Part shown: positions 6,628 through 45,769 of the stretch, piece after piece | How positions within the stretch are numbered: position 1 is the first letter of the stretch | How the letters are laid out: each line of letters opens with the position of its first letter | NCBI GenBank assembly: GCA_032123335.1 | Contig: JAQBFN010000012.1 | Location: 91-64,090, forward strand | DNA length: 64,000 bases | From: Candidatus Micrarchaeota archaeon | Lineage (GTDB): Archaea; Micrarchaeota; Micrarchaeia; Anstonellales; Bilamarchaeaceae | Reading direction: 5' to 3' | The notes under the pieces: model-generated | Seen by the model: only the letters and a program-made list of their open reading frames with translations | What the model was told of the DNA's origin: nothing | Database searches by the model: none | Program-made: the position numbers and the translations under genes

Positions 6628-7308
6628 ATGGTATTAAACACGTATACAAAAATGTTCCAGGCACTGTTGCCGAAGAACATCGAAGAATTTGCCAAGAAGG
6701 AGAAAGGCACAATTGGCGGAGGAATTAAGGTTTATGTCCTCGCCTGGATTGTTGGGCTCATTATCGGAGTTCTCGGCCTTCTTCTTGCAATAACGACGGC
6801 AGGTCCGGATATGCAGGCACTTTCCCAGATGATTGGGATGGATGTCGTGGGTATCCTCGGAGTAGTGATTCTGGTCATTAGTTCGATAATTGGGCTTGTC
6901 TGGGGGGTGGCTTCCCAGTACATTACACTGTACGTAGGAGGCTGGTGTGCAACCAGCTTCTTCGGCGGAAAGGGCAAGTTTGAACAGCTGTTTTATGTAG
7001 TTATGCTGTTTAGCGGTGCGGTGATGATCATCACTGCAGTGTTCGGAATTCTGGACGTGCTCGTTCCTGCGATTGCAGTGGTTACTGGAATTATCTCGCT
7101 TCTGCTTGGGCTCTGGACCCTGTACCTGCTCTATGTTACAATCAAGAGCATATACAAGGTTGAGCTTGGCGGCGGTGTGGTATCCACTCTTGCAGTGCTG
7201 GTTGCTGGAATTATACTCGCAATTATCGTGGGTGTAGTTCTCGTGATGGTCCTTGGAGTAGGAATGCTCGGAGGGGCCGCAGCAGCTGGCGCACTTGGCG
7301 GGATGTGA
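6628..7308 (+). CDS. Polytopic membrane protein, Yip1-domain-like
   Basis: 226 aa with about 5 hydrophobic helices. The [19 protein letters not shown]...[16 protein letters not shown] pattern is reminiscent of the Yip1 family. Confidence 0.5.
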
Positions 7309-21861: not shown

Positions 21862-24141
21862 TTATTCCATAGTCAAATCTTCCCCATCCGTGCCTTCAAG
21901 GCCAGGGCAGTCTGTTTCCCAGGGCTGTACGCACTCCTTAAGGGGTTCACACCAAACATAGCCAGCAGAAGCTTTGCAGCCATGCTCATCTGTGTCTCCT
22001 CCAGTCTCGGGACCGGGGCCCTCAGCAGGGGGGCAGTCAGTCTCCCAGGACTTTATGCACTCCTTGAGGGTTTCGCACCATGTGTAACCGGCTGAAGCTT
22101 TGCAGCCATGCTCATCTGTGTCTCCTCCAGTCTGGGGTCCAGGGTCGAATGGCTCATCTCCAGGGATGACTGCAGTCACGGTATCGGAGTTAGGCCCTTC
22201 ATTTCCTGCGCTGTCAACTGCCGTTACATAGTATGCGTAGGTGTAGCCTTTAGCCAATCCTGAATCCTGCCAGGTTGTGGTCCTTGTGCTTCCGGCTTTT
22301 GCGAAGAGTCCGAAATCCGTGTTGCTGCGGTAGATATCATACTCGGAGATATCTCCTGAGACTCTTGACCAGCTCAAGTGCACTACATCGTTCCTGTCAA
22401 CAGTTGCGCGGAGGTTTGTAACCGGTCCGGGTGGGCTGGTGTCCAGGTAAATGGATGCAGACGCAGATTCCTTTCCATAGTCATTCTTGCACTGGTAGCT
22501 GACCGTTTTCTTTCCGCTTCCGGAAGTAAGGGTCCATGACATGCTGGTTGTGTAATCATCGTACGATGTCCAGCTGCCTCCACTGTTCTGGAATCTGCAT
22601 GCATCAGCATTGGTTGCACGGAGGGTGAGGGTTACATCCGCGCTGCTTGTGTGCGAAGCACCGTTGTTTATCTTGATGCTCATGCTCGATGGCGGCACTG
22701 GCTCCTTCTTGGAGTACGTTATGTCTGCGGAAGCTGTACCAAGGTCACCTCCATTGGCGTTCTTGCAGTTGTAGTAGACAGTTTTGTCTCCTTCACCTGA
22801 AGAAAGGGTCCAGTATTTCTTGGTTGTGTACGAGCTCCATCCGCTCCAGTCACTACCATACTCGTTCCTGTACCTGCACTGGGATGCAGAGTAGGTATAG
22901 AGGCCGAGCTTCACGTCCCTTGTGTTGGTCCAGTCATCCCCATTGTCGATTTCTATGGAGATTTTGTCTCCCTTGTGGGTGTCCAGGATTACTGAGTCTG
23001 AGGTGGTTTCAGAAAGCTGGCCTTCAGAGCTCTTGCACTCCACATAAACGGTTTTTGTGCCGTCTCCGGAGCTGAGCGTCCAGTGGGTTTCCTGGACATA
23101 TGGAACCCAGTTGTTCCATGCCATATTCTCGTTTGAGAACCTGCATTCTACTGCATTGTCAGCCATTACATCCAGGGTTACGTAGGTGCTGCTTACGTAT
23201 CCTGATCCGCTTTCAATGTGGAGTTCCACTCCTGAAGGGGTTGACCCCACAATAAAGCTTACTGATTCTTTTGCAGTGTTTGCGCCATCATTACAATTTA
23301 TTGTAAGTGTGTGGCTCCCTGCCTTTGCATTTATTGTCATGCTGTCTTCTGTTCCAACATCCAGGGTCCCAATTGCGATTGCTGCACCATCCACATCACC
23401 TGTGCAGGTAATTGTGGAGGACATCGGGTCGGTAACCGTGAACTTCAGCTGGAACTGTGTTGCATAGGTCTGTCCGCTCTGGGGCGAAGAGATTGAGATG
23501 CTCGGGCCGGTTGTGTCCAGCTCGATGGTTGCACTTACAGAGTTTGCTTCGTTTCCGTGCGCATCCTTGCATGTGTAGTAGACATCTTTCATTCCATCCC
23601 CGGATGAGAGCTGCCAGTTCATTGAAGTTGTGTAGGCTGCCCAGTCGCTCCAGGTAACCTTGTCATTGGAAACCCTGCACTCGGATGAGGTCTGCGCTGA
23701 AAGCGTAAGCGTAACATCCCTTGAGTTTGTGTGCGTGGCTCCATTGTTAATCTGGACTGAGAGGCCGCTTGGCGGGTTCACATCAGTGGATGCGCTCGCC
23801 TGCTCTGTGTTAGTGCCTTCAGTTCCGCCCGAGGTCATTGAGCGGACTGTGTAGTAATATACTACGCTGCTCTCCACGTTTGAGTCCATGTAAGAAGTGG
23901 AGGTGATCAGCACCGCGTTGATTTTGACCCCGAGATCCCCTGCGGCCGTGCTCCGGTAAACATTATATCCGGTAACATCGGCTTTCTGGGATGGGTTCCA
24001 GTTAACTTCAATTCCTCCTGCGACAGCTTTTGCGGTTACTCCGGTATTTTCTGGGCCTCCATTCTGGGGGCACCCGGCAATAAACACAAAGGAAAGCAGT
24101 ACAATTCCTAAGAATATGAGTAGTATGCTCTTGTTTTGCAT
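21862..24141 (-). CDS. Large modular surface protein (lipobox-like signal, 2 FN3-like, 4 repeated beta-domains, 2 Cys-rich C-terminal modules)
   Basis: The start at 24141 gives MQNKSILLIFLGIVLLSFVFIAGCPQ. Four ~90-aa repeats follow the pattern INNGA.HT.S.DVTLTL.A....CR..N....WS.W..YTTS..W.LSSG.G.K.VYY.CK. FN3-like modules lie at both ends. TGGDTDEHGCKASAGY.WCE.LKEC...WETDCP occurs twice. Confidence 0.75.
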   Translation of the reverse strand: MQNKSILLIFLGIVLLSFVFIAGCPQNGGPENTGVTAKAVAGGIEVNWNPSQKADVTGYNVYRSTAAGDLGVKINAVLITSTSYMDSNVESSVVYYYTVRSMTSGGTEGTNTEQASASTDVNPPSGLSVQINNGATHTNSRDVTLTLSAQTSSECRVSNDKVTWSDWAAYTTSMNWQLSSGDGMKDVYYTCKDAHGNEANSVSATIELDTTGPSISISSPQSGQTYATQFQLKFTVTDPMSSTITCTGDVDGAAIAIGTLDVGTEDSMTINAKAGSHTLTINCNDGANTAKESVSFIVGSTPSGVELHIESGSGYVSSTYVTLDVMADNAVECRFSNENMAWNNWVPYVQETHWTLSSGDGTKTVYVECKSSEGQLSETTSDSVILDTHKGDKISIEIDNGDDWTNTRDVKLGLYTYSASQCRYRNEYGSDWSGWSSYTTKKYWTLSSGEGDKTVYYNCKNANGGDLGTASADITYSKKEPVPPSSMSIKINNGASHTSSADVTLTLRATNADACRFQNSGGSWTSYDDYTTSMSWTLTSGSGKKTVSYQCKNDYGKESASASIYLDTSPPGPVTNLRATVDRNDVVHLSWSRVSGDISEYDIYRSNTDFGLFAKAGSTRTTTWQDSGLAKGYTYAYYVTAVDSAGNEGPNSDTVTAVIPGDEPFDPGPQTGGDTDEHGCKASAGYTWCETLKECIKSWETDCPPAEGPGPETGGDTDEHGCKASAGYVWCEPLKECVQPWETDCPGLEGTDGEDLTME
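21868..22133 (-). repeat. Tandem duplication of 126 nt (42 codons) encoding a 4-Cys module
   Basis: aagctttgcagccatgctcatctgtgtctcctccagtct occurs at 21969-22007 and 22095-22133. Confidence 0.85.
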
Positions 24142-29567: not shown

Positions 29568-29876
29568 ATGGAGCACCGAACCGGGGAACGGAATGAGCCG
29601 GTGAGGGCTGTGGCTGCGAGGTCACTCAACTTAATCGGGGAATTCATTGGGAAGGACCTGGTGGTGCTGGAAAGCGCTGCTGAAAGCTTTCTGGGTGCTA
29701 ACGGAAAAATAGTGGATGAAACCAAGAACACCTTCGTGATTGAAGCGCACGGAACCGAGAAAAGGGTTCCGAAAAAAGGATGCGTTTTCGAGATTGAGGG
29801 GAAGAAGGTTCGTGGTGATGAAATAATGTTCAGGGCCGAAGACCGGCCGAGAAAACTCAGGAAAAAAATAAGGTGA
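29568..29876 (+). CDS. rnp1: RNase P protein component 1 (Rpp29/Pop4)
   Basis: LIGEFIGKDLVVLESAAESFLGANGKIVDETKNTFVIE. It sits in the canonical position between L29/SUI1 and S17. Confidence 0.8.
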   Translation: MEHRTGERNEPVRAVAARSLNLIGEFIGKDLVVLESAAESFLGANGKIVDETKNTFVIEAHGTEKRVPKKGCVFEIEGKKVRGDEIMFRAEDRPRKLRKKIR

Positions 29877-44000: not shown

Positions 44001-45454
44001 CCAAGAATAAGATGACTTGGGGGGAATTCCTGGACAGAATGGCAGGAGAGCACTATGGAAAAATAAGAGCTGAAGCTACGGAAGATGTGGAGGAGCAGCA
44101 TTATGCGTTCCTGGAGGAAGGTGAAAAAGAAAAGAAGATCCTGGAGACAATTGATTATTTGTCTGATTATTATGAAATACGCGATCTCCGATACGTATCA
44201 GGACGTGATGCCGTATTGGAGAAGATAGAGGGGTTTGGGCCGGATAGCACCATACCAATCGACACAGAAGAAAGTGAAAGGCATCTTCTACAAAGTGTGA
44301 GAGTTATAGAAAAATTATCCAAATACATAGAATCTGAAGCAGTAAAGGATAATGGAAAAAGGATCTTGAAACCCATGGAATTCGTAAGGCTTGTTGCAAG
44401 CCACTTGGGTTCGCCGGGAGTAAGGTTCCTACAGACGCTGGGGCTTTATGTTGATTTGCCTGATGAATACAGGGAAGAATTCGACAAAGTATATGATTCA
44501 ATGAGAGGGCAGCCAAAGCTCTCTGCTTTCCATACTCTAAAGAGGGAGTGGGAAGGGCTTAGTGGAGAAGTGGCAGAGATGAGGGCTCCGGTTGGGGCAG
44601 GTTCCCTCCTTACTGTTTATGAAGTGAAAACGGCAGAGGGGGAGAAAGAGGTTGTGAAGGTGCTAAACCCGAATGCATCTTTCCACACAGAATCAATGTG
44701 TGAATTAATAGAAAGCGCATTCAAGGCTATGAAGAAACACGAGGGACTTGCTGTTCCTGTGCTAAGGGACATCAAAACCTGGATAAACGAGGATATTTCA
44801 TTTGAAGATTCATTTGAGAAAGACCGGAGGTTCCGGGATATTCATAGTGGATGGAATGCTGAGGACTCTGCGTACTCGATTTATGTTCCTGAGACGCGCG
44901 GGAAGGAGAATAAGTATTACATACGAGAGGAGTTTGTTGAGGGGAAAAACCTTACCCAATGGGACAGCCTTGTTGAAGAAGGGCATAATATGAAAGATAT
45001 CATGAGCACTGTGGTGAAAAACTCTGTTATTCAGTTGGTGGATGGGCAGGTGCATTCTGACCTGCATCCTGGAAACATAAGGATTACCAGTGATAAGAGG
45101 GTGTGCTACCTGGACAGGAATTACTATATAGAAATAGATGATGCGGACAGGCAGTTTATACTGGGGCTGGAATCTTCCCTGGAGGATAGGGAAGAATTGG
45201 CTGGAAAGATTGCTAGGTATTTTGCTGGAGAAGATGACCCTGTGCTCCAGAAGAAGATTGCTGAGAAAATAGGTGATGATGAAGGGGACCCTGCACACCT
45301 AGTTGCAGGGGCTTTGGTAGAAGTAAGAAACAGGGGATATGATGTTCCTCTGAAAGTGACCCTTATTCTGAAGAATATCCTTTCTTTGGACAGGCTTGCC
45401 AAGAGGGCTGGGTTCTCAGGCATTACAGAAGCATATCTTTACGAGAATAAGTGA
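41033..45454 (+). CDS. Giant (1,473-aa) protein: N-terminal M48-type Zn-metalloprotease motifs, long helical middle, C-terminal ABC1/UbiB-type kinase-like domain
   Basis: HERSH at aa 109-113 and QEYEAD at aa 141-146. The C-terminus has VGAGSLLTVYEV..KEVVKVLNP, EEFVEGKNL, VHSDLHPGNIRI and YLDRN. I see no obvious TM segments. Confidence 0.75.
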   Translation: MPRQKNAEKEVKGSPSKAKERIGRLAPYVESVLKERYGCYPESHPLSQYVKSIVERMETGADKGRISVSVTRGWEEANACALPNGAILISDRMFKFCETEDEIAFVINHERSHIKGGHAERMCDNQSTKDIILTIGSLRSQEYEADVQAAIESGEGPFNPHGGAVFLNRINEMEKECGVVEDIGHGSSLLRILALDYTARIVDMPSLSHALTPLPQDMLRSIESDVDPWKTILRDSLDETDPQKLHLAREALAKKCGVRSALSLMGPIYKRYNRIKQHSGKKYNGASLSAKMRMEFERKILKILLGKIDSLINKEYGDLDKEGKEVVRALVLELCAGVPLSEMHLKGEDHFGLFDSFSKLLLGRKSYQVMKIMGEFSSNFPEELVLERSPKKFIGSIINMLSEGGWFSDRKYSLVVNILMKDLEKAYRKKGAIDIDWGEIETECSIDMILDTSVDENAEAIAIIDISAKNLSEENKAKIVRNLFSRVEFDPKDLPEGWSVMLDKWKKENLPEKYLEAKEAMVRIAKRKWEGSMTTSLSEGKEVPEEDKYPFSEALRILGTGDLKEIEYFLDSIWEDMSIGKKIKEIVVGDISDSFLRGWDNEQHREFVDALRSKEGILGVLHIISKFPSCTAQLECIWFMETACGTMQTPEELAEIKEDLKKYGFYSEPEGKALMGKLFESSASRWADVLPRGELFRQLKRSVEILKPHEFMRAYILGAEIDRGSAVLGYDELLAKILDKYSFDTDNASEAEELLTVCAFLGDYDLKSQVLRSVLSKQIPKLGAGNAKKLLFGDPRLDGVSLNEMRERIINEEILSPESLGEAIDEAVVFMTKKESRKTLGKAIVGNTVMGELLKDKDGALKLFLKCAEDDFELRKATYHVWEAVGDRLEYVMPLSTLYERMYNIDFLTKQLIVQNLLMGKNGVLIKQSSRKKTVDWVLDYFVQSSEDESEKRLMEFLREILGKLAEKSDVSTMYFLLSPLILDRILVRPKNKMTWGEFLDRMAGEHYGKIRAEATEDVEEQHYAFLEEGEKEKKILETIDYLSDYYEIRDLRYVSGRDAVLEKIEGFGPDSTIPIDTEESERHLLQSVRVIEKLSKYIESEAVKDNGKRILKPMEFVRLVASHLGSPGVRFLQTLGLYVDLPDEYREEFDKVYDSMRGQPKLSAFHTLKREWEGLSGEVAEMRAPVGAGSLLTVYEVKTAEGEKEVVKVLNPNASFHTESMCELIESAFKAMKKHEGLAVPVLRDIKTWINEDISFEDSFEKDRRFRDIHSGWNAEDSAYSIYVPETRGKENKYYIREEFVEGKNLTQWDSLVEEGHNMKDIMSTVVKNSVIQLVDGQVHSDLHPGNIRITSDKRVCYLDRNYYIEIDDADRQFILGLESSLEDREELAGKIARYFAGEDDPVLQKKIAEKIGDDEGDPAHLVAGALVEVRNRGYDVPLKVTLILKNILSLDRLAKRAGFSGITEAYLYENK

Positions 45455-45518
45455 AGGTAGGTCTGGGTTAAGGCTAAAGAATAAAAAGAAATGGTATAAG
45501 TATAACTACACACTTTTT

Positions 45519-45603
45519 GCGGAGATGGCAGAACCTGGTTATCGCGCACGCCTGGAAAGCGTGTGCCCTCACGGGCTTGGGAGTTCAAATCTCCCTCTCC
45601 GCG
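45519..45603 (+). tRNA. tRNA-Ser (anticodon GGA), class II, no encoded CCA
   Basis: Hand-folded. The acceptor is GCGGAGA/TCTCCGC and the anticodon stem is CACGC/GCGTG with loop CTGGAAA. The long variable arm is GCCC-tcac-GGGC, the T arm is GGGAG-TTCAAAT-CTCCC, and the discriminator is G. The D stem is weak, with one A-C mismatch. Confidence 0.9.
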
Positions 45604-45610
45604 TAGCGCA

Positions 45611-45700
45611 GCGAAGCGGGAGGGGCTGTGGCCGAATGTTGAGCTCTGCTCAACAGATGTAACCGAAGGTTACAAAGAGGTCACTCAACCCTCTCCGCGT
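45611..45700 (+). ncRNA. Unclassified structured element (three-way junction) ending in a 12-nt copy of the tRNA-Ser 3' end
   Basis: Helix P1 pairs 45619-45625 with 45690-45696, and P2 pairs 45628-45633 with 45679-45684. There are 7-bp hairpins at 45637-45655 and 45658-45674. ccctctccgcgt occurs at 45593-45604 and 45689-45700. It is followed by a T5 run. Confidence 0.3.
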
Positions 45701-45710
45701 CAATTTTTAT
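45701..45710 (+). terminator. Oligo-T tract (caatttttat)
   Basis: It is the first T5 run downstream of the tRNA and the structured element. Archaeal RNA polymerase terminates at oligo-T. Confidence 0.35.
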
Positions 45711-45769
45711 GACCGTCTTAAGCTAGTACAAAACTTGACAAAAACACCGTATTACACTGCTTCTTTGTT

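What the first reader, a model, noticed from the sequence alone, without database searches (positions are those of the whole stretch)
45519..45710. tRNA-Ser is followed by a compact three-way-junction element that ends with an exact 12-nt copy of the tRNA 3' end
**Repeat (seen).** The 12-mer ccctctccgcgt, which is the end of the T stem plus the 3' acceptor strand, the discriminator and one trailing nt, occurs at 45593-45604 and again at 45689-45700. A specific 12-mer recurring within about 100 nt is very unlikely by chance.

**Fold (seen, by hand).** The intervening and overlapping sequence folds tightly:
- A 7-bp terminal helix (45619-25 with 45690-96, one G-U pair) is the same length as a tRNA acceptor stem and is followed by the same G.
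- A stacked 6-bp helix pairs 45628-33 with 45679-84.
- Two perfect 7-bp hairpins lie at 45637-55 (loop ctctg) and 45658-74 (loop gaa).
- The first oligo-T run (45704-08) comes only after this element, so it is probably co-transcribed with the tRNA.

**Interpretation (inference).** It lacks a T-loop consensus and a canonical 7-nt anticodon loop with U33, so it is not a normal tRNA. Three options remain: a tRNA-derived or tRNA-mimicking small RNA, a processing or regulatory trailer, or a decayed remnant of site-specific recombination at the tRNA.
Basis: partly seen in the sequence, partly recalled or inferred. Interest (0 to 1): 0.6.

Follow-up and report, generated by a model that had tools for sequence, protein, structure and literature searches.

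The report
Hairpin cassette copying tRNA-Ser's end
Behind the serine tRNA gene of a tiny uncultured archaeon (Micrarchaeota) sits a 96-base non-coding hairpin insert whose two arms are a forward and a backward copy of the tRNA's last bases; it belongs to a family of such inserts, not found in the literature searched here, that come and go at gene ends, and it is not a tRNA.

Summary
The 12-mer CCCTCTCCGCGT occurs exactly at 45593-45604 and 45689-45700.

It is not a tRNA or a known RNA family: ARAGORN (default and relaxed) and Rfam find nothing there.

Window 45605-45700 is a 96-nt insert at the tRNA-Ser(GGA) 3' boundary. Two congeners have the empty site. Others carry inserts with the same arms but different inner hairpins or cargo.

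Layout:
- linker;
- imperfect inverted copy of the tRNA end;
- conserved core, GCU / 6-bp hairpin / UCAA;
- direct copy of the tRNA end.

The same core occurs 46 times in 21 of 176 genomes of the order (11 genera), and the flanking arms copy the local target in nearly all copies whose flanks were read. Targets include other tRNA 3' ends, one tRNA 5' end in mirror orientation, and Shine-Dalgarno or start regions of genes on the other strand.

The two inner hairpins are a separate 42-nt module with about 20 copies in this genome.

Best reading (about 0.5): a DNA-level, non-autonomous hairpin cassette whose arms are templated by its target. Here it is carried passively in the tRNA trailer. No enzyme or transcript evidence was obtained. 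I found no description of it in the papers searched, though this scan has noted similar cases.

The parts
45519..45603 (+). tRNA-Ser(GGA) gene, no encoded CCA; the only tRNA-Ser(GGA) gene ARAGORN finds in this 87%-complete genome
   Evidence: ARAGORN; Rfam RF00005 49.5 bits
45593..45604 (+). DR1: CCCTCTCCGCGT. It comprises the last 3 nt of the T stem, the 3' acceptor strand, discriminator G and the first trailer base.
   Evidence: Exact 12-mer. In the empty sites of G005:C85 and G001:C8 this 12-mer is followed directly by CAACTTTTATG.
45605..45615 (+). Linker AGCGCAGCGAA. Together with 45616-45617 it contains the GCGAAGC mini-hairpin word. A related linker, TAGCGAAGCG, precedes the cassette behind tRNA-Asn in G004:C39.
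   Evidence: Sequence; comparison with G002, G006 and G004
45616..45625 (+). 5' arm GCGGGAGGGG, an imperfect inverted copy of DR (the perfect form GCGGAGAGGG is seen in G001:C8). It pairs with 45689-45698.
   Evidence: RNAfold; orthologues
45625..45688 (+). Conserved 'Y' core: head GCT (45625-27), 6-bp helix GTGGCC (45628-33) with GGTCAC (45679-84), tail TCAA (45685-88). The apical loop GAA (45634-36) carries the nested module.
   Evidence: Covariance model R1 hits window 45617-45697 (29.7 bits, E 6e-5). Across 44 cores the inner helix is 98.8% paired, with changes on both sides in 5 of 6 pairs.
45637..45678 (+). Nested 42-nt double-hairpin module. Unit A is TGTTGAG-CTCTG-CTCAACA-GA (45637-57). 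Unit B is TGTAACC-GAA-GGTTACA-AAGA (45658-78).
   Evidence: About 20 loci in the genome. Absent from the otherwise same core in G001:C8. Strain X6 changes only the loop, at 45665 and 45667.
45689..45700 (+). DR2: the second exact copy of CCCTCTCCGCGT. It forms the 3' arm of the outer helix.
45704..45708 (+). First oligo-T (TTTTT) after the tRNA, a likely archaeal termination signal
   Evidence: Sequence. That oligo-T acts as the terminator is established knowledge for archaeal RNA polymerase, not tested here.
45700..45760 (+). Conserved tRNA-flanking module of about 60 nt (TCAATTTTTATGACCGT...GTACAAAACTTGACAAAAACACCGT...). It is the native flank of the insertion site and is not part of the cassette here.
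   Evidence: Directly follows the tRNA in G005 and G001. Similar copies lie behind at least 9 tRNA genes of G000, and reverse-complement copies lie in front of three.

Best explanation
Window 45605-45700 is a 96-nt non-coding hairpin cassette inserted at the 3' boundary of the tRNA-Ser(GGA) gene of a Micrarchaeota (DPANN) archaeon.

**Build.** Linker, then an inverted copy of the tRNA's last ~10 nt, then a conserved core (GCU / 6-bp hairpin / UYAA), then a direct copy of the tRNA's last 12 nt. A second, independent 42-nt double-hairpin module is nested in the core's loop.

**Nature (inferred).** It is a DNA-level, non-autonomous element.
- The core is copied from other cassettes.
- The two arms are made from whatever sequence it lands beside.
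- The folded single strand therefore carries a stem that reproduces the target duplex. This has the same topology as an integron cassette with its attC, or as the folded attP of phage CTX.

**How it spreads (inferred, two routes not separated).**
- Strand exchange at that hairpin; or
- replication template switching that copies the flank in both orientations.

**Why tRNA ends (inferred).**
- The acceptor-stem DNA gives the same word at both ends of the gene.
- Anything outside the mature tRNA is trimmed off by RNase P and RNase Z, so insertions there are harmless.

**Consequence in this genome.** The cassette is transcribed as the tRNA-Ser trailer, because no oligo-T occurs before 45704. Its own fold keeps the anti-tRNA arm paired with the decoy copy, so the tRNA can fold.

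**Shown.** The anatomy, the fold, the insertion polymorphism, the family, the target-matched arms and strand-specific pairing.

**Inferred.** Mobility, its mechanism and the RNA fate.
For: 1. **Insertion polymorphism at the exact repeat boundary.**
   - G005:C85 reads tRNA...CCCTCTCCGCGT|CAACTTTTATG with nothing between. G001:C8 reads the same, but carries a cassette 66 nt further on. G002:C23 has the second flank type, with no cassette in the 640 nt read.
   - G000 has 96 nt and G002:C44 has 66 nt bounded by the same 12-mer; G006:C23 has 65 nt, its first copy one base shorter (11 nt).
2. **Same arms, exchangeable content.**
   - The inner part is the Y hairpin plus 42-nt module in G000, and the Y hairpin alone in G001:C8.
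   - It is an ACTAATC hairpin in G002 and an AGTAATC hairpin in G006.
   - It is an AGAAATC hairpin with a nested 42-nt module in G007, and the same hairpin without it in the X21 contig.
   - In G001 and G007 the repeat-bounded insert also holds 66 and 95 nt of other repeated DNA, that is, cargo.
3. **Same core, other targets, arms re-made.**
   - The core is 97% identical behind tRNA-Ser(UGA) in G001:C52, with arms GCCGATAGGG / CCCTCTCGGC.
   - It is 80% identical behind tRNA-Asn in G004:C39, with arms GCCCAGGGGA / TCCCCGGGGC.
   - Model R1 finds 46 cores in 21 of 176 genomes and 11 of 48 genera.
   - About 30 lie directly behind tRNA genes (Leu, Ser, Asn, Phe, Met) and end in that tRNA's own 3' end.
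4. **Signs of DNA-level targeting.**
   - G058:C28 sits at a tRNA-Leu 5' end in mirror orientation. Its repeat is the reverse complement of the 5' acceptor strand.
   - G093:C83 lies antisense between two minus-strand genes, and in G093:C70/C83 and G107:C116 the repeat TCACCT is the complement of the AGGTGA Shine-Dalgarno box read on the opposite strand.
   - In G000:C20 a 22-nt duplication of the L30e start flanks a compound Y cassette on the opposite strand.
   - For tRNA-Leu cassettes the inverted arm includes the complement of the discriminator and of the T-rich trailer. It therefore copies the gene, not the mature tRNA or its 5' strand.
5. **Structure is maintained.** Across 44 cores 93.8% of cells are paired, against 72% in shuffles. 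Ten of 12 pairs show changes on both sides. Sliding the partner drops pairing to 31-45%.
6. **One strand folds.** G.T plus T.G pairs number 23, against 5 A.C plus C.A.
7. **Not another known thing.** No tRNA, no Rfam family, no phage similarity.
Against: - No enzyme is identified.
  - G000 has no Y1/HUH transposase.
  - It has only one tyrosine recombinase, on another contig next to tRNA-Glu.
  - G004, which has 8 cores, and G006, which carries a cassette at this locus, show no tyrosine recombinase at all, though these genomes are 81-91% complete.
- No excised circle, no cassette with a protein gene as cargo, and no copy on viral contigs was found.
- Repeat length varies from 6 to 28 nt, which fits no fixed-stagger transposase.
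- The outer helix is kept in at least six lineages, and the whole element is stable in several strains. That is equally compatible with a selected RNA.
- The G.T excess fits RNA folding as well as single-strand DNA folding.
- The genome-wide excess of tRNA-end copies downstream of tRNA genes is modest. It is 10 of 41, against a mean of 4.2 and a maximum of 10 in 200 random-window controls.
Confidence: 0.5

Rival explanations
1. A functional structured RNA attached to the tRNA transcript. The trailer would fold into a stable three-way junction with a tRNA-like end. It would serve in 3' processing or termination (an RNase Z or RNase P landmark, an exonuclease block, an insulator against read-through), or it would be released as a small tRNA-end-mimicking RNA.
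For: - It must be co-transcribed, since there is no oligo-T before 45704.
- The fold is much more stable than shuffles and is independent of the tRNA fold.
- The outer helix is conserved in G000, G001, G002, G006, G007 and X21.
- G.U pairs greatly outnumber A.C pairs on the tRNA-sense strand.
- In G001:C8 the element stands 22 nt behind a TATA-like GATAAAAA and ends in T5, like a mini-gene.
- A contig of a run labelled RNA-Seq spans tRNA, element and flank.
Against: - It is absent from the same locus in G005 and G002:C23.
- The inner hairpins are freely exchanged.
- Sister cassettes have arms of only 5-6 bp, and none has a T-loop.
- The same core occurs in mirror orientation at a tRNA 5' end and antisense between genes, so its conserved GCU/UYAA loop would not exist in those transcripts.
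- Needing to copy the neighbour's end has no obvious RNA rationale.
- The X21 library may contain DNA.
Confidence: 0.24
2. No element at all. These would be by-products of replication errors at palindromes: quasi-palindrome template switching, snap-back synthesis and slippage next to highly transcribed tRNA genes. They would be kept because they are harmless.
For: - Arms are always templated by the local flank.
- In several tRNA-Leu cassettes the inverted copy extends through the native T-rich trailer, giving near-perfect 12-bp palindromes such as CCGGCATTTTGC-TT-GCAAAATGCTGG.
- Repeat lengths vary from 6 to 28 nt.
- No dedicated enzyme co-occurs.
- Tandem arrays contain identical neighbouring units (G001:C31).
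Against: - A specific asymmetric core (GG-GCW-stem...stem-TYAA-CC) is conserved over 11 genera and is never 'corrected' to a perfect palindrome.
- A near-identical core (97%) sits at different tRNA genes in different species, so sequence moves between loci.
- The 42-nt module inserts as a precise unit in either orientation.
Confidence: 0.15
3. A decayed scar of a classical integrase-mediated integration into tRNA-Ser. The repeats would be attL/attR cores left after deletion of the element's body.
For: - There is a direct repeat of the tRNA 3' end, the usual signature of tRNA-targeting integrative elements (PMC9897764 describes 44-bp examples in Thermococcales).
- Integrases exist in the genus.
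- G001:C52 shows a 1.2-kb duplication with a hybrid tRNA-Ser.
Against: - Only 84 nt lie between the repeats.
- There is no gene fragment.
- The repeat is 12 nt, not tens of nt.
- There is an inverted copy of the target, which integration does not create.
- The same ordered layout recurs at many tRNAs and at non-tRNA sites with conserved core structure.
Confidence: 0.06
4. A degenerate tandem duplicate of tRNA-Ser, that is, a pseudogene that lost its D, anticodon and variable arms.
For: - The element (84 nt, 45616-45699) is as long as the tRNA (85 nt).
- It starts GCGG and ends CTCCGCG, like the tRNA.
- G001:C8 shows ctttttGCGGAGA, as at the true tRNA 5' end.
Against: - Nothing between the arms aligns with the tRNA body.
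- The interior is the Y core shared with tRNA-Leu, tRNA-Asn and tRNA-Phe cassettes, plus a 42-nt module found about 20 times.
- ARAGORN and Rfam give no hit.
Confidence: 0.03

Closest known systems
Integron gene cassettes with attC sites, and the folded single-stranded attP of phage CTX
   Same: - Topology is the same: target-site word, cargo, inverted arm, variable hairpin, target-site word again.
- Arrays of such units stack next to one fixed site.
- The recombination site is a structure with variable sequence and a conserved asymmetric unpaired part.
- One strand is the folding strand (G.T excess).
   Different: - Arms copy each individual target (6-28 nt) instead of a fixed 7-nt core.
- The RYYYAAC...GTTRRRY pair is not present.
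- Cargo is 11-95 nt of non-coding DNA, and no genes were seen.
- No IntI-like or Xer-like enzyme was linked to the cassettes.
- The lineage is an archaeon.
- Mobility itself was not shown.
Partial tRNA gene copies (att repeats) left by integrative elements in archaeal tRNA genes, for example the 44-bp repeats around PYG1 (PMC9897764)
   Same: A direct repeat of the tRNA 3' end lies downstream of an intact tRNA gene, and the locus is a hotspot with several arrangements among relatives.
   Different: - The repeat is only 6-13 nt at tRNA genes.
- The insert is 45-111 nt and has no genes.
- An inverted copy of the target is present.
- A conserved hairpin core is shared between different tRNAs.
- The layout is also found at non-tRNA sites.
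E. coli tRNA-linked repeats (tyrT/tyrV 178-bp repeats carrying the last 19 nt of tRNA-Tyr). This rests on my own knowledge and on leads from earlier notes.
   Same: Copies of the tRNA 3' end are repeated downstream of the tRNA gene and are co-transcribed with it.
   Different: Those are tandem duplications of trailer DNA. They have no hairpin whose arms mimic the acceptor helix, and no core shared among unrelated tRNAs.
Small palindromic repeats: REP/BIME with RAYT transposases, MITEs, and Rickettsia palindromic elements (own knowledge; reviewed in PMC3184786)
   Same: - They are short, multi-copy and structure-conserving hairpin DNA in intergenic regions.
- They sometimes lie in frame inside genes (compare the Y-like hairpin in the Rpp29-like gene, window 29600-29637).
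- They show nested insertions.
   Different: - There are no terminal inverted repeats.
- There is no fixed target-site duplication.
- There is no RAYT/Y1 transposase in this genome.
- Stems differ between copies while loops and 4-nt tails are kept.
- Arms are templated by the target.
tRNA acceptor/T-stem minihelices and tRNA-like structures (viral TLS, mascRNA)
   Same: A terminal helix has the sequence of the tRNA-Ser acceptor stem plus 3 bp of T stem, followed by the same discriminator G.
   Different: - There is no T-loop.
- The helix is interrupted after 9-10 bp by a 3x4 internal loop.
- Sister cassettes have 5-6-bp arms.
- No evidence of processing or CCA addition was obtained.

Membership tests
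tRNA / tRNA pseudogene | Cloverleaf recognisable by tRNA search programs | tested here: not met
   ARAGORN at default and with lowered thresholds (-ps, -ps90, -ps80 -i) finds no tRNA in 45605-45712. Only the metazoan-mitochondrial mode forces a call. Rfam RF00005 matches only 45519-45603, even at E up to 10.
tRNA / tRNA pseudogene | T-loop consensus and a 7-nt anticodon loop with U33 | tested here: not met
   The loops are CUCUG and GAA. The interior is the Y core plus the 42-nt module shared with unrelated loci.
tRNA-like minihelix substrate (RNase P, RNase Z, CCA enzyme) | Continuous stack of about 12 bp (acceptor plus T stem) capped by a T-loop, with a discriminator after the helix | tested here: not met
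   The helix is 9-10 bp with a bulge, followed by a 3x4 internal loop and a 6-bp helix with no T-loop. The discriminator G is present. Leu, Phe and Met family members have 5-6-bp arms.
tRNA-like minihelix substrate (RNase P, RNase Z, CCA enzyme) | Actual cleavage or CCA addition | not testable with these tools
   No usable RNA data.
att remnant of an integrase-borne element | Direct repeat identical to the tRNA 3' part | tested here: met
   A 12 of 12 identical repeat.
att remnant of an integrase-borne element | Integrase or element genes (or their fragments) between or beside the repeats, here or in relatives | tested here: not met
   84 nt lie between the repeats with no genuine gene (one search lists only a mechanical 88-codon TTG frame, 45396-45662, that runs through the tRNA gene itself). 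The only PF00589 hit of G000 is on contig C9. Other CCCTCTCCGCG sites in the genus show no cassette hairpin beside them and look like chance words.
MITE | Terminal inverted repeats and a target-site duplication of fixed length | tested here: not met
   The ends AGCGCAGCG... and ...GGTCACTCAA are not inverted repeats. Repeat length ranges from 6 to 28 nt over the family.
REP/BIME with RAYT | Y1 (HUH) transposase in the genome, and uniform palindromic units | tested here: not met
   PF01797 is absent from G000, G001 and G004, and present only in G003 and G007. Stems differ between copies.
Integron cassette / attC | Order target word, cargo, inverted arm, variable hairpin, target word; arrays at one site; strand-specific fold | tested here: met
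   Layout shown. Arrays of 3 to 6 or more units lie behind tRNA-Leu genes. G.T plus T.G number 23, against 5 A.C plus C.A.
Integron cassette / attC | R''/R' core sites RYYYAAC...GTTRRRY and an IntI-type integrase next to the array | tested here: not met
   ACTCAAC (45683-45689) fits RYYYAAC, but it lies on the 3' side and has no GTTRRRY partner (read). No integrase gene was seen in the sequence read around the arrays (for this window), and G004 and G006 have no PF00589 hit at all.
Any described RNA family (Rfam 15) | Match to a covariance model | tested here: not met
   Only weak chance-level hits, for example sX4 at 18.5 bits against a gathering score of 70.

The most novel reading that the evidence does not exclude
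These are a previously undescribed class of miniature mobile cassettes of DPANN and other archaea.

- Each is a conserved asymmetric hairpin core that, on insertion, acquires a forward and a backward copy of its target.
- The folded single strand therefore presents a replica of the target duplex as its own recombination site.
- That would be an archaeal, target-adaptive analogue of integron attC or CTX attP.
- tRNA gene ends serve as the main safe harbour.
- Smaller 42-nt hairpin modules hop into the loops of larger ones.
Probability: 0.3. Interest if true: 0.85.

Novelty: new variant of a known kind. Interest (0 to 1): 0.6.

Why it matters
If the DNA-level reading is right, several things follow.

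- **A new way of choosing and remembering a target.** Tiny archaeal genomes would harbour a kind of mobile or self-propagating DNA without a gene of its own. Its arms would be copied from the insertion site and then form the element's own hairpin site.
- **An explanation for tRNA flanks.** It would account for why tRNA gene flanks in DPANN and some other archaea are littered with tRNA-end copies.
- **A warning for annotation.** These copies should not be read as tRNA fragments, split tRNAs or integration scars.
- **A tool lead.** It would point to an enzyme, still to be found, that acts on folded single strands.

If instead the RNA reading is right, these would be a new class of tRNA-linked structured RNAs. 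Either way the family is defined well enough here, with a core motif and a covariance model, to be searched for and tested.

Tried and rejected
- **tRNA or tRNA-like gene.** ARAGORN relaxed and Rfam at E up to 10 give nothing.
- **Known RNA family for the core arrays.** None found.
- **K-turn, C/D box, H/ACA, BHB splice motif.** Inspected by eye only. The required GA pairs, boxes or staggered 3-nt bulges are absent.
- **Retroelement primer-binding site.** The inverted arm lacks the complement of CCA. In tRNA-Leu cassettes it copies the T-rich gene trailer, so it derives from DNA or the primary transcript, not the mature tRNA.
- **IS200/IS605, REP or RAYT.** The TCAA tail recalls the IS608 right end, but there is no Y1 transposase in G000, G001 or G004.
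- **Casposon-like or other fixed-length target duplication.** The repeat length is variable.
- **Phage or virus origin.** No similarity in the phage collection. The two viral-contig pattern hits lie in coding sequence and are chance.
- **Cassettes with gene cargo at distant CCCTCTCCGCG sites in the genus.** All ten sites show no cassette hairpin beside the word and look like chance occurrences.
- **Wider distribution by exact pattern in 185,579 species genomes.** Only the Micrarchaeota relative plus 8 bacterial records, none from this lineage and judged chance hits (sequences not inspected).
- **Transcript evidence.**
  - Three RNA-Seq runs of the source study hold nothing on this stretch.
  - One RNA-Seq-labelled contig from a relative spans tRNA plus element but may be DNA.
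- **The 40-nt direct repeat at window ~21968-22134.** It looked like another cassette but is a coding tandem repeat.
- **Literature.** Three full-text searches found no description of such cassettes.
Full report
**1. The observation**

The window is contig C12 of a 1.04-Mb, 48% G+C genome that is 87% complete.
- It is archaeal. Deoxyhypusine synthase, speE and speH lie next door, and the tRNA genes read here encode no CCA.
- A congener's contigs are titled 'Candidatus Micrarchaeota archaeon', so this is a DPANN archaeon.
- The runs that hold the sequence come from aquatic and marine-sediment metagenomes.

- tRNA-Ser(GGA) is at 45519-45603.
- The 12-mer CCCTCTCCGCGT is exact at 45593 and 45689 and occurs nowhere else in the window.
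- Window 45605-45703 folds to -44.7 kcal/mol, against -29.5 ± 3.5 for shuffles (z = -4.3).
- In the 192-nt context the tRNA and the element fold as two independent domains.
The terminal helix is longer than stated: GCGGGAGGG (45616-24) pairs with CCCUC-U-CCGC (45689-98). The 5' strand is thus an imperfect inverted copy of the repeated tRNA end.
- There is no run of four or more T before 45704.
- The sequence is present in independent metagenome assemblies, so it is not an assembly artefact.

**2. It is an insertion**

At the orthologous locus, tRNA-Ser(GGA) convergent with speE, the congeners differ.

| Genome | Arrangement behind the tRNA |
|---|---|
| G005:C85 | tRNA...CCCTCTCCGCGT, then directly CAACTTTTATG... 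(empty site) |
| G002:C23 | tRNA...CCCTCTCCGCGT, then directly CGCTTTTT... (empty site, a second flank type) |
| G000 (this window) | 96 extra nt ending in a second copy of the 12-mer |
| G002:C44 | 66 extra nt; second copy reads CCCTCTCCGCAT |
| G006:C23 | 65 extra nt |
| G001:C8 | tRNA, then the 66-nt conserved flank module, then GCGGAGAGGG-GCT-GTGGCC-GGAA-GGTCAC-TCAA-CCCTCTCCGCGT, then the CGCTTTTT flank |
| G007:C24 | 95 nt of another repeat, then arms around an AGAAATC hairpin, then the same CGCTTTTT flank |

- In G001 the repeat-bounded insert is 111 nt and carries the module as cargo.
- A contig from run X21 has the AGAAATC hairpin between the same arms.
- The arms are therefore constant for this tRNA. 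What lies between them, and what precedes them, is exchangeable.
- Strains at 90-99% identity keep the G000 version intact. One of them changes only the loop of the second hairpin.

**3. The core belongs to a family**

The core of the G000 element is GCT, then GTGGCC...GGTCAC, then TCAA.
- It recurs 97% identical behind tRNA-Ser(UGA) in G001:C52, with arms GCCGATAGGG / CCCTCTCGGC that match that tRNA.
- It recurs 80% identical behind tRNA-Asn in G004:C39, with arms GCCCAGGGGA / TCCCCGGGGC.

I aligned eleven short-loop copies (A1) and built covariance model R1.
- In 176 genomes of the order, R1 finds 46 cores in 21 genomes and 11 of 48 genera.
- About 30 of them lie directly behind tRNA genes: four tRNA-Leu isoacceptors, Ser, Asn, Phe and Met.
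- They often form arrays of 2 to 6 or more units. Nearly every unit ends in that tRNA's own last 5-13 nt.
- In 44 aligned cores the inner helix is 98.8% paired and the arm helix 88.6% paired.
- Ten of 12 pairs change on both sides. Shuffled partners give 72% pairing and slid partners 31-45%.
- The unpaired GCW head, the TYAA tail and the closing GG/CC pairs are conserved.

**4. Signs that the DNA, not a tRNA-like RNA, is the level of action**

- In G058:C28 the cassette sits at the 5' end of a tRNA-Leu gene in mirror orientation. Its repeat, ACCCCTGCG, is the reverse complement of positions -1 to +8 of the tRNA. The acceptor stem makes both gene ends read the same word outward.
- In G093:C70, G093:C83 and G107:C116 the repeat is TCACCT, the complement of the AGGTGA Shine-Dalgarno box read on the opposite strand. 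G062:C67 and G050:C149 have the same first copy, but their second copy is only TCAC. In G093:C83 the cassette lies antisense between two co-directional genes.
- In this genome, a 22-nt duplication of the L30e start codon region flanks a compound Y cassette on the opposite strand. A 28-nt repeat on C1 flanks a simple hairpin with its own inverted arm.
- For tRNA-Leu cassettes the inverted arm includes the complement of the discriminator and of the T-rich trailer, for example CCGGCATTTTGC-TT-GCAAAATGCTGG. It therefore copies the gene flank, not the tRNA 5' strand or the CCA-tailed tRNA.
- Many arms are only 5-6 bp, and no copy has a T-loop.
- On the other hand, G.T plus T.G pairs (23) far outnumber A.C plus C.A pairs (5) on the GCW...TYAA strand. 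One particular strand folds. That fits RNA, and equally a folded single DNA strand as in attC sites.

**5. Other hairpin modules**

- **The 42-nt module.** The two inner hairpins of the finding (45637-45678) are a separate module of two 21-nt units, each stem-loop-stem plus an ..GA tail.
  - BLAST with 17 variants marks 21 loci in G000, 8 of them within 300 nt of an annotated tRNA.
  - It sits at the 3' side of the GAA or GGA loop of host hairpins, or in the A/T-rich centre of the tRNA-flank module, in either orientation.
  - It is absent from the otherwise identical host hairpin in G001:C8 and X21.
- **A second cassette type.** GGGGCG-TATTTGCC...GGCAAATC-TGA plus the tRNA end follows tRNA-Arg(CCU) (with a 24-nt repeat), Lys(CUU), Gly(GCC), Val(GAC) and Lys(UUU).
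- **Genome-wide count.** Ten of 41 tRNA genes have a copy of at least 6 nt of their end within 170 nt downstream. Upstream the count is 3, and random windows give a mean of 4.2 and a maximum of 10. That excess is modest, but the hairpin layout beside the copies is far more specific.

**6. Mechanism**

*Shown:* the anatomy, the insertion polymorphism, target-matched arms, a conserved asymmetric core, strand-specific pairing and nesting.

*Inferred:*
- The cassette is a non-autonomous DNA element.
- Its order (target word, cargo, inverted arm, hairpin, target word) is what results when a circle carrying a hairpin site recombines within the shared word. That is the topology of integron cassettes and of folded CTX attP.
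- Because the arms always match the local site, including sites of 22-28 nt, they must be templated by the target at or after insertion.
- That points either to copying by replication template switching, or to correction of mismatches within the hairpin.
- I cannot separate hairpin-site strand exchange from template switching.

*No enzyme is linked.*
- A Y1 transposase is absent from G000, G001 and G004.
- G000 has one tyrosine recombinase, elsewhere in the genome. G004 and G006 have none detected.

*In this genome* the cassette must be part of the pre-tRNA-Ser trailer.
- Its own fold pairs the anti-tRNA arm with the decoy copy.
- A misfold that pairs that arm with the tRNA's own 3' end is nearly as stable, at -81.3 against -82.1 kcal/mol.
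- The decoy copy plausibly keeps the insert harmless.

**7. Comparison and novelty**

- Rfam, the phage collection and viral contigs hold nothing like it.
- Full-text searches found only classical 44-bp att fragments in archaeal tRNA genes (PMC9897764) and general reviews of small repeats.
- Earlier notes of this scan describe the same layout behind tRNA genes of other DPANN and Thermoplasmata genomes, and in this genome behind tRNA-Leu and before L30e. I re-derived the latter two independently.

New here:
- a defined core motif with a model;
- its spread over 11 genera;
- the mirror-orientation and Shine-Dalgarno or start-site targets;
- the cargo variants at one locus;
- the strand bias;
- the nested 42-nt module.

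**8. Limits**

- All the genomes are incomplete metagenome bins.
- Mobility is inferred from comparative patterns only.

Noticed in passing
window 45700-45760; also G000 C1, C7, C9, C27, C33, C40, C43, C54 behind tRNA genes, and C15, C41, C50 in front of tRNA-Leu genes: A conserved module of about 60-66 nt in two variants. One reads TCAAYTTTTAT..GTACAAAAATTGTCAAAAAACACCGT..GCT. The other reads AAATTTTTTTCTGCTGTTTTACGCT..TAAAAATTTTATAAAAACATGRCCCGC. It follows at least 9 tRNA genes and precedes three others as its reverse complement, so it lies in mirror orientation around tRNA genes. It carries T-runs on both strands and a TATA-like centre, which suggests a bidirectional terminator or insulator, or another tRNA-linked repeat. 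In G001:C8 it lies inside the repeat-bounded insert.
   Followed up: partly
window 45637-45678 and about 20 other loci of G000 (e.g. C9:18580-18621, C13:34545-34586, C22:763-835, C44:9688-9762): A 42-nt double-hairpin module made of two 21-nt units. Stems differ between copies but stay paired, while the loops (CTYTG, GAA) and the ..AGA tails are kept. It inserts at the 3' side of loops of larger hairpins, up to two levels deep, and in either orientation.
   Followed up: partly
G000 C3:16562-16637, C7:4196-4300, C15:10584-10650, C54:6710-6860, C54:15462-15530: A second cassette type, GGGGCG-TATTTGCC..GGCAAATC-TGA plus a copy of the tRNA end, lies behind tRNA-Arg(CCU), Lys(CUU), Gly(GCC), Val(GAC) and Lys(UUU). 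The Arg case has a 24-nt direct repeat.
   Followed up: partly
window 29600-29637: A Y-type hairpin (GG-GCT-GTGGCT-GCGA-GGTCAC-TCAA) lies in frame in the 5' coding part of what I read as the RNase P protein Rpp29 gene (from its translation and its place in the ribosomal gene cluster; no family search was run). The G003:C9 homologue keeps it with compensated stems (GCGGCC/GGCCGC). This may be an in-frame insertion of the same core.
   Followed up: partly
G000:C20:8121-8281 (other contig): A 22-nt duplication of the L30e start region flanks a three-hairpin Y cassette on the opposite strand, creating a second start site upstream of L30e. C1:51298-51397 shows a 28-nt repeat around a single hairpin with an inverted arm.
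   Followed up: partly
L034 = G001:C52:400-1800: A direct duplication of about 1.2 kb carries two tRNA-Ser(UGA) genes with identical upstream DNA. The second gene ends in the Ser(GGA)-type CTCCGCG, which gives a C.C mismatch at 3:70. This could be a recombination product between the two tRNA-Ser ends, or an assembly chimera.
   Followed up: no
G000:C43 about 6800-6900 and C22 about 840-900; L012 (G007:C24) directly behind tRNA-Ser: Another repeated element, GGGGGAGGGTCAGGAGGACCCTCAAACTGGGGAGGGGGTG..CCCCCTCCGCGGTTCG. It contains a hairpin and a T-arm-like GGTTCG word, and it abuts tRNA gene ends in reverse orientation.
   Followed up: no
G000:C9:1400-1457(-), C54:6710-6770, C1:44864-44900: Long GC-rich imperfect palindromes (..GTACGCGC..GCGCGTAC..) are inserted directly behind tRNA-Leu(UAA), tRNA-Val(GAC) and tRNA-Thr(UGU). 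They form a further hairpin family at tRNA ends.
   Followed up: no
G000:C9:20956-21456: The only tyrosine recombinase of the genome (412-aa frame) lies about 570 nt downstream of tRNA-Glu(UUC). This is probably a conventional integrated element.
   Followed up: no
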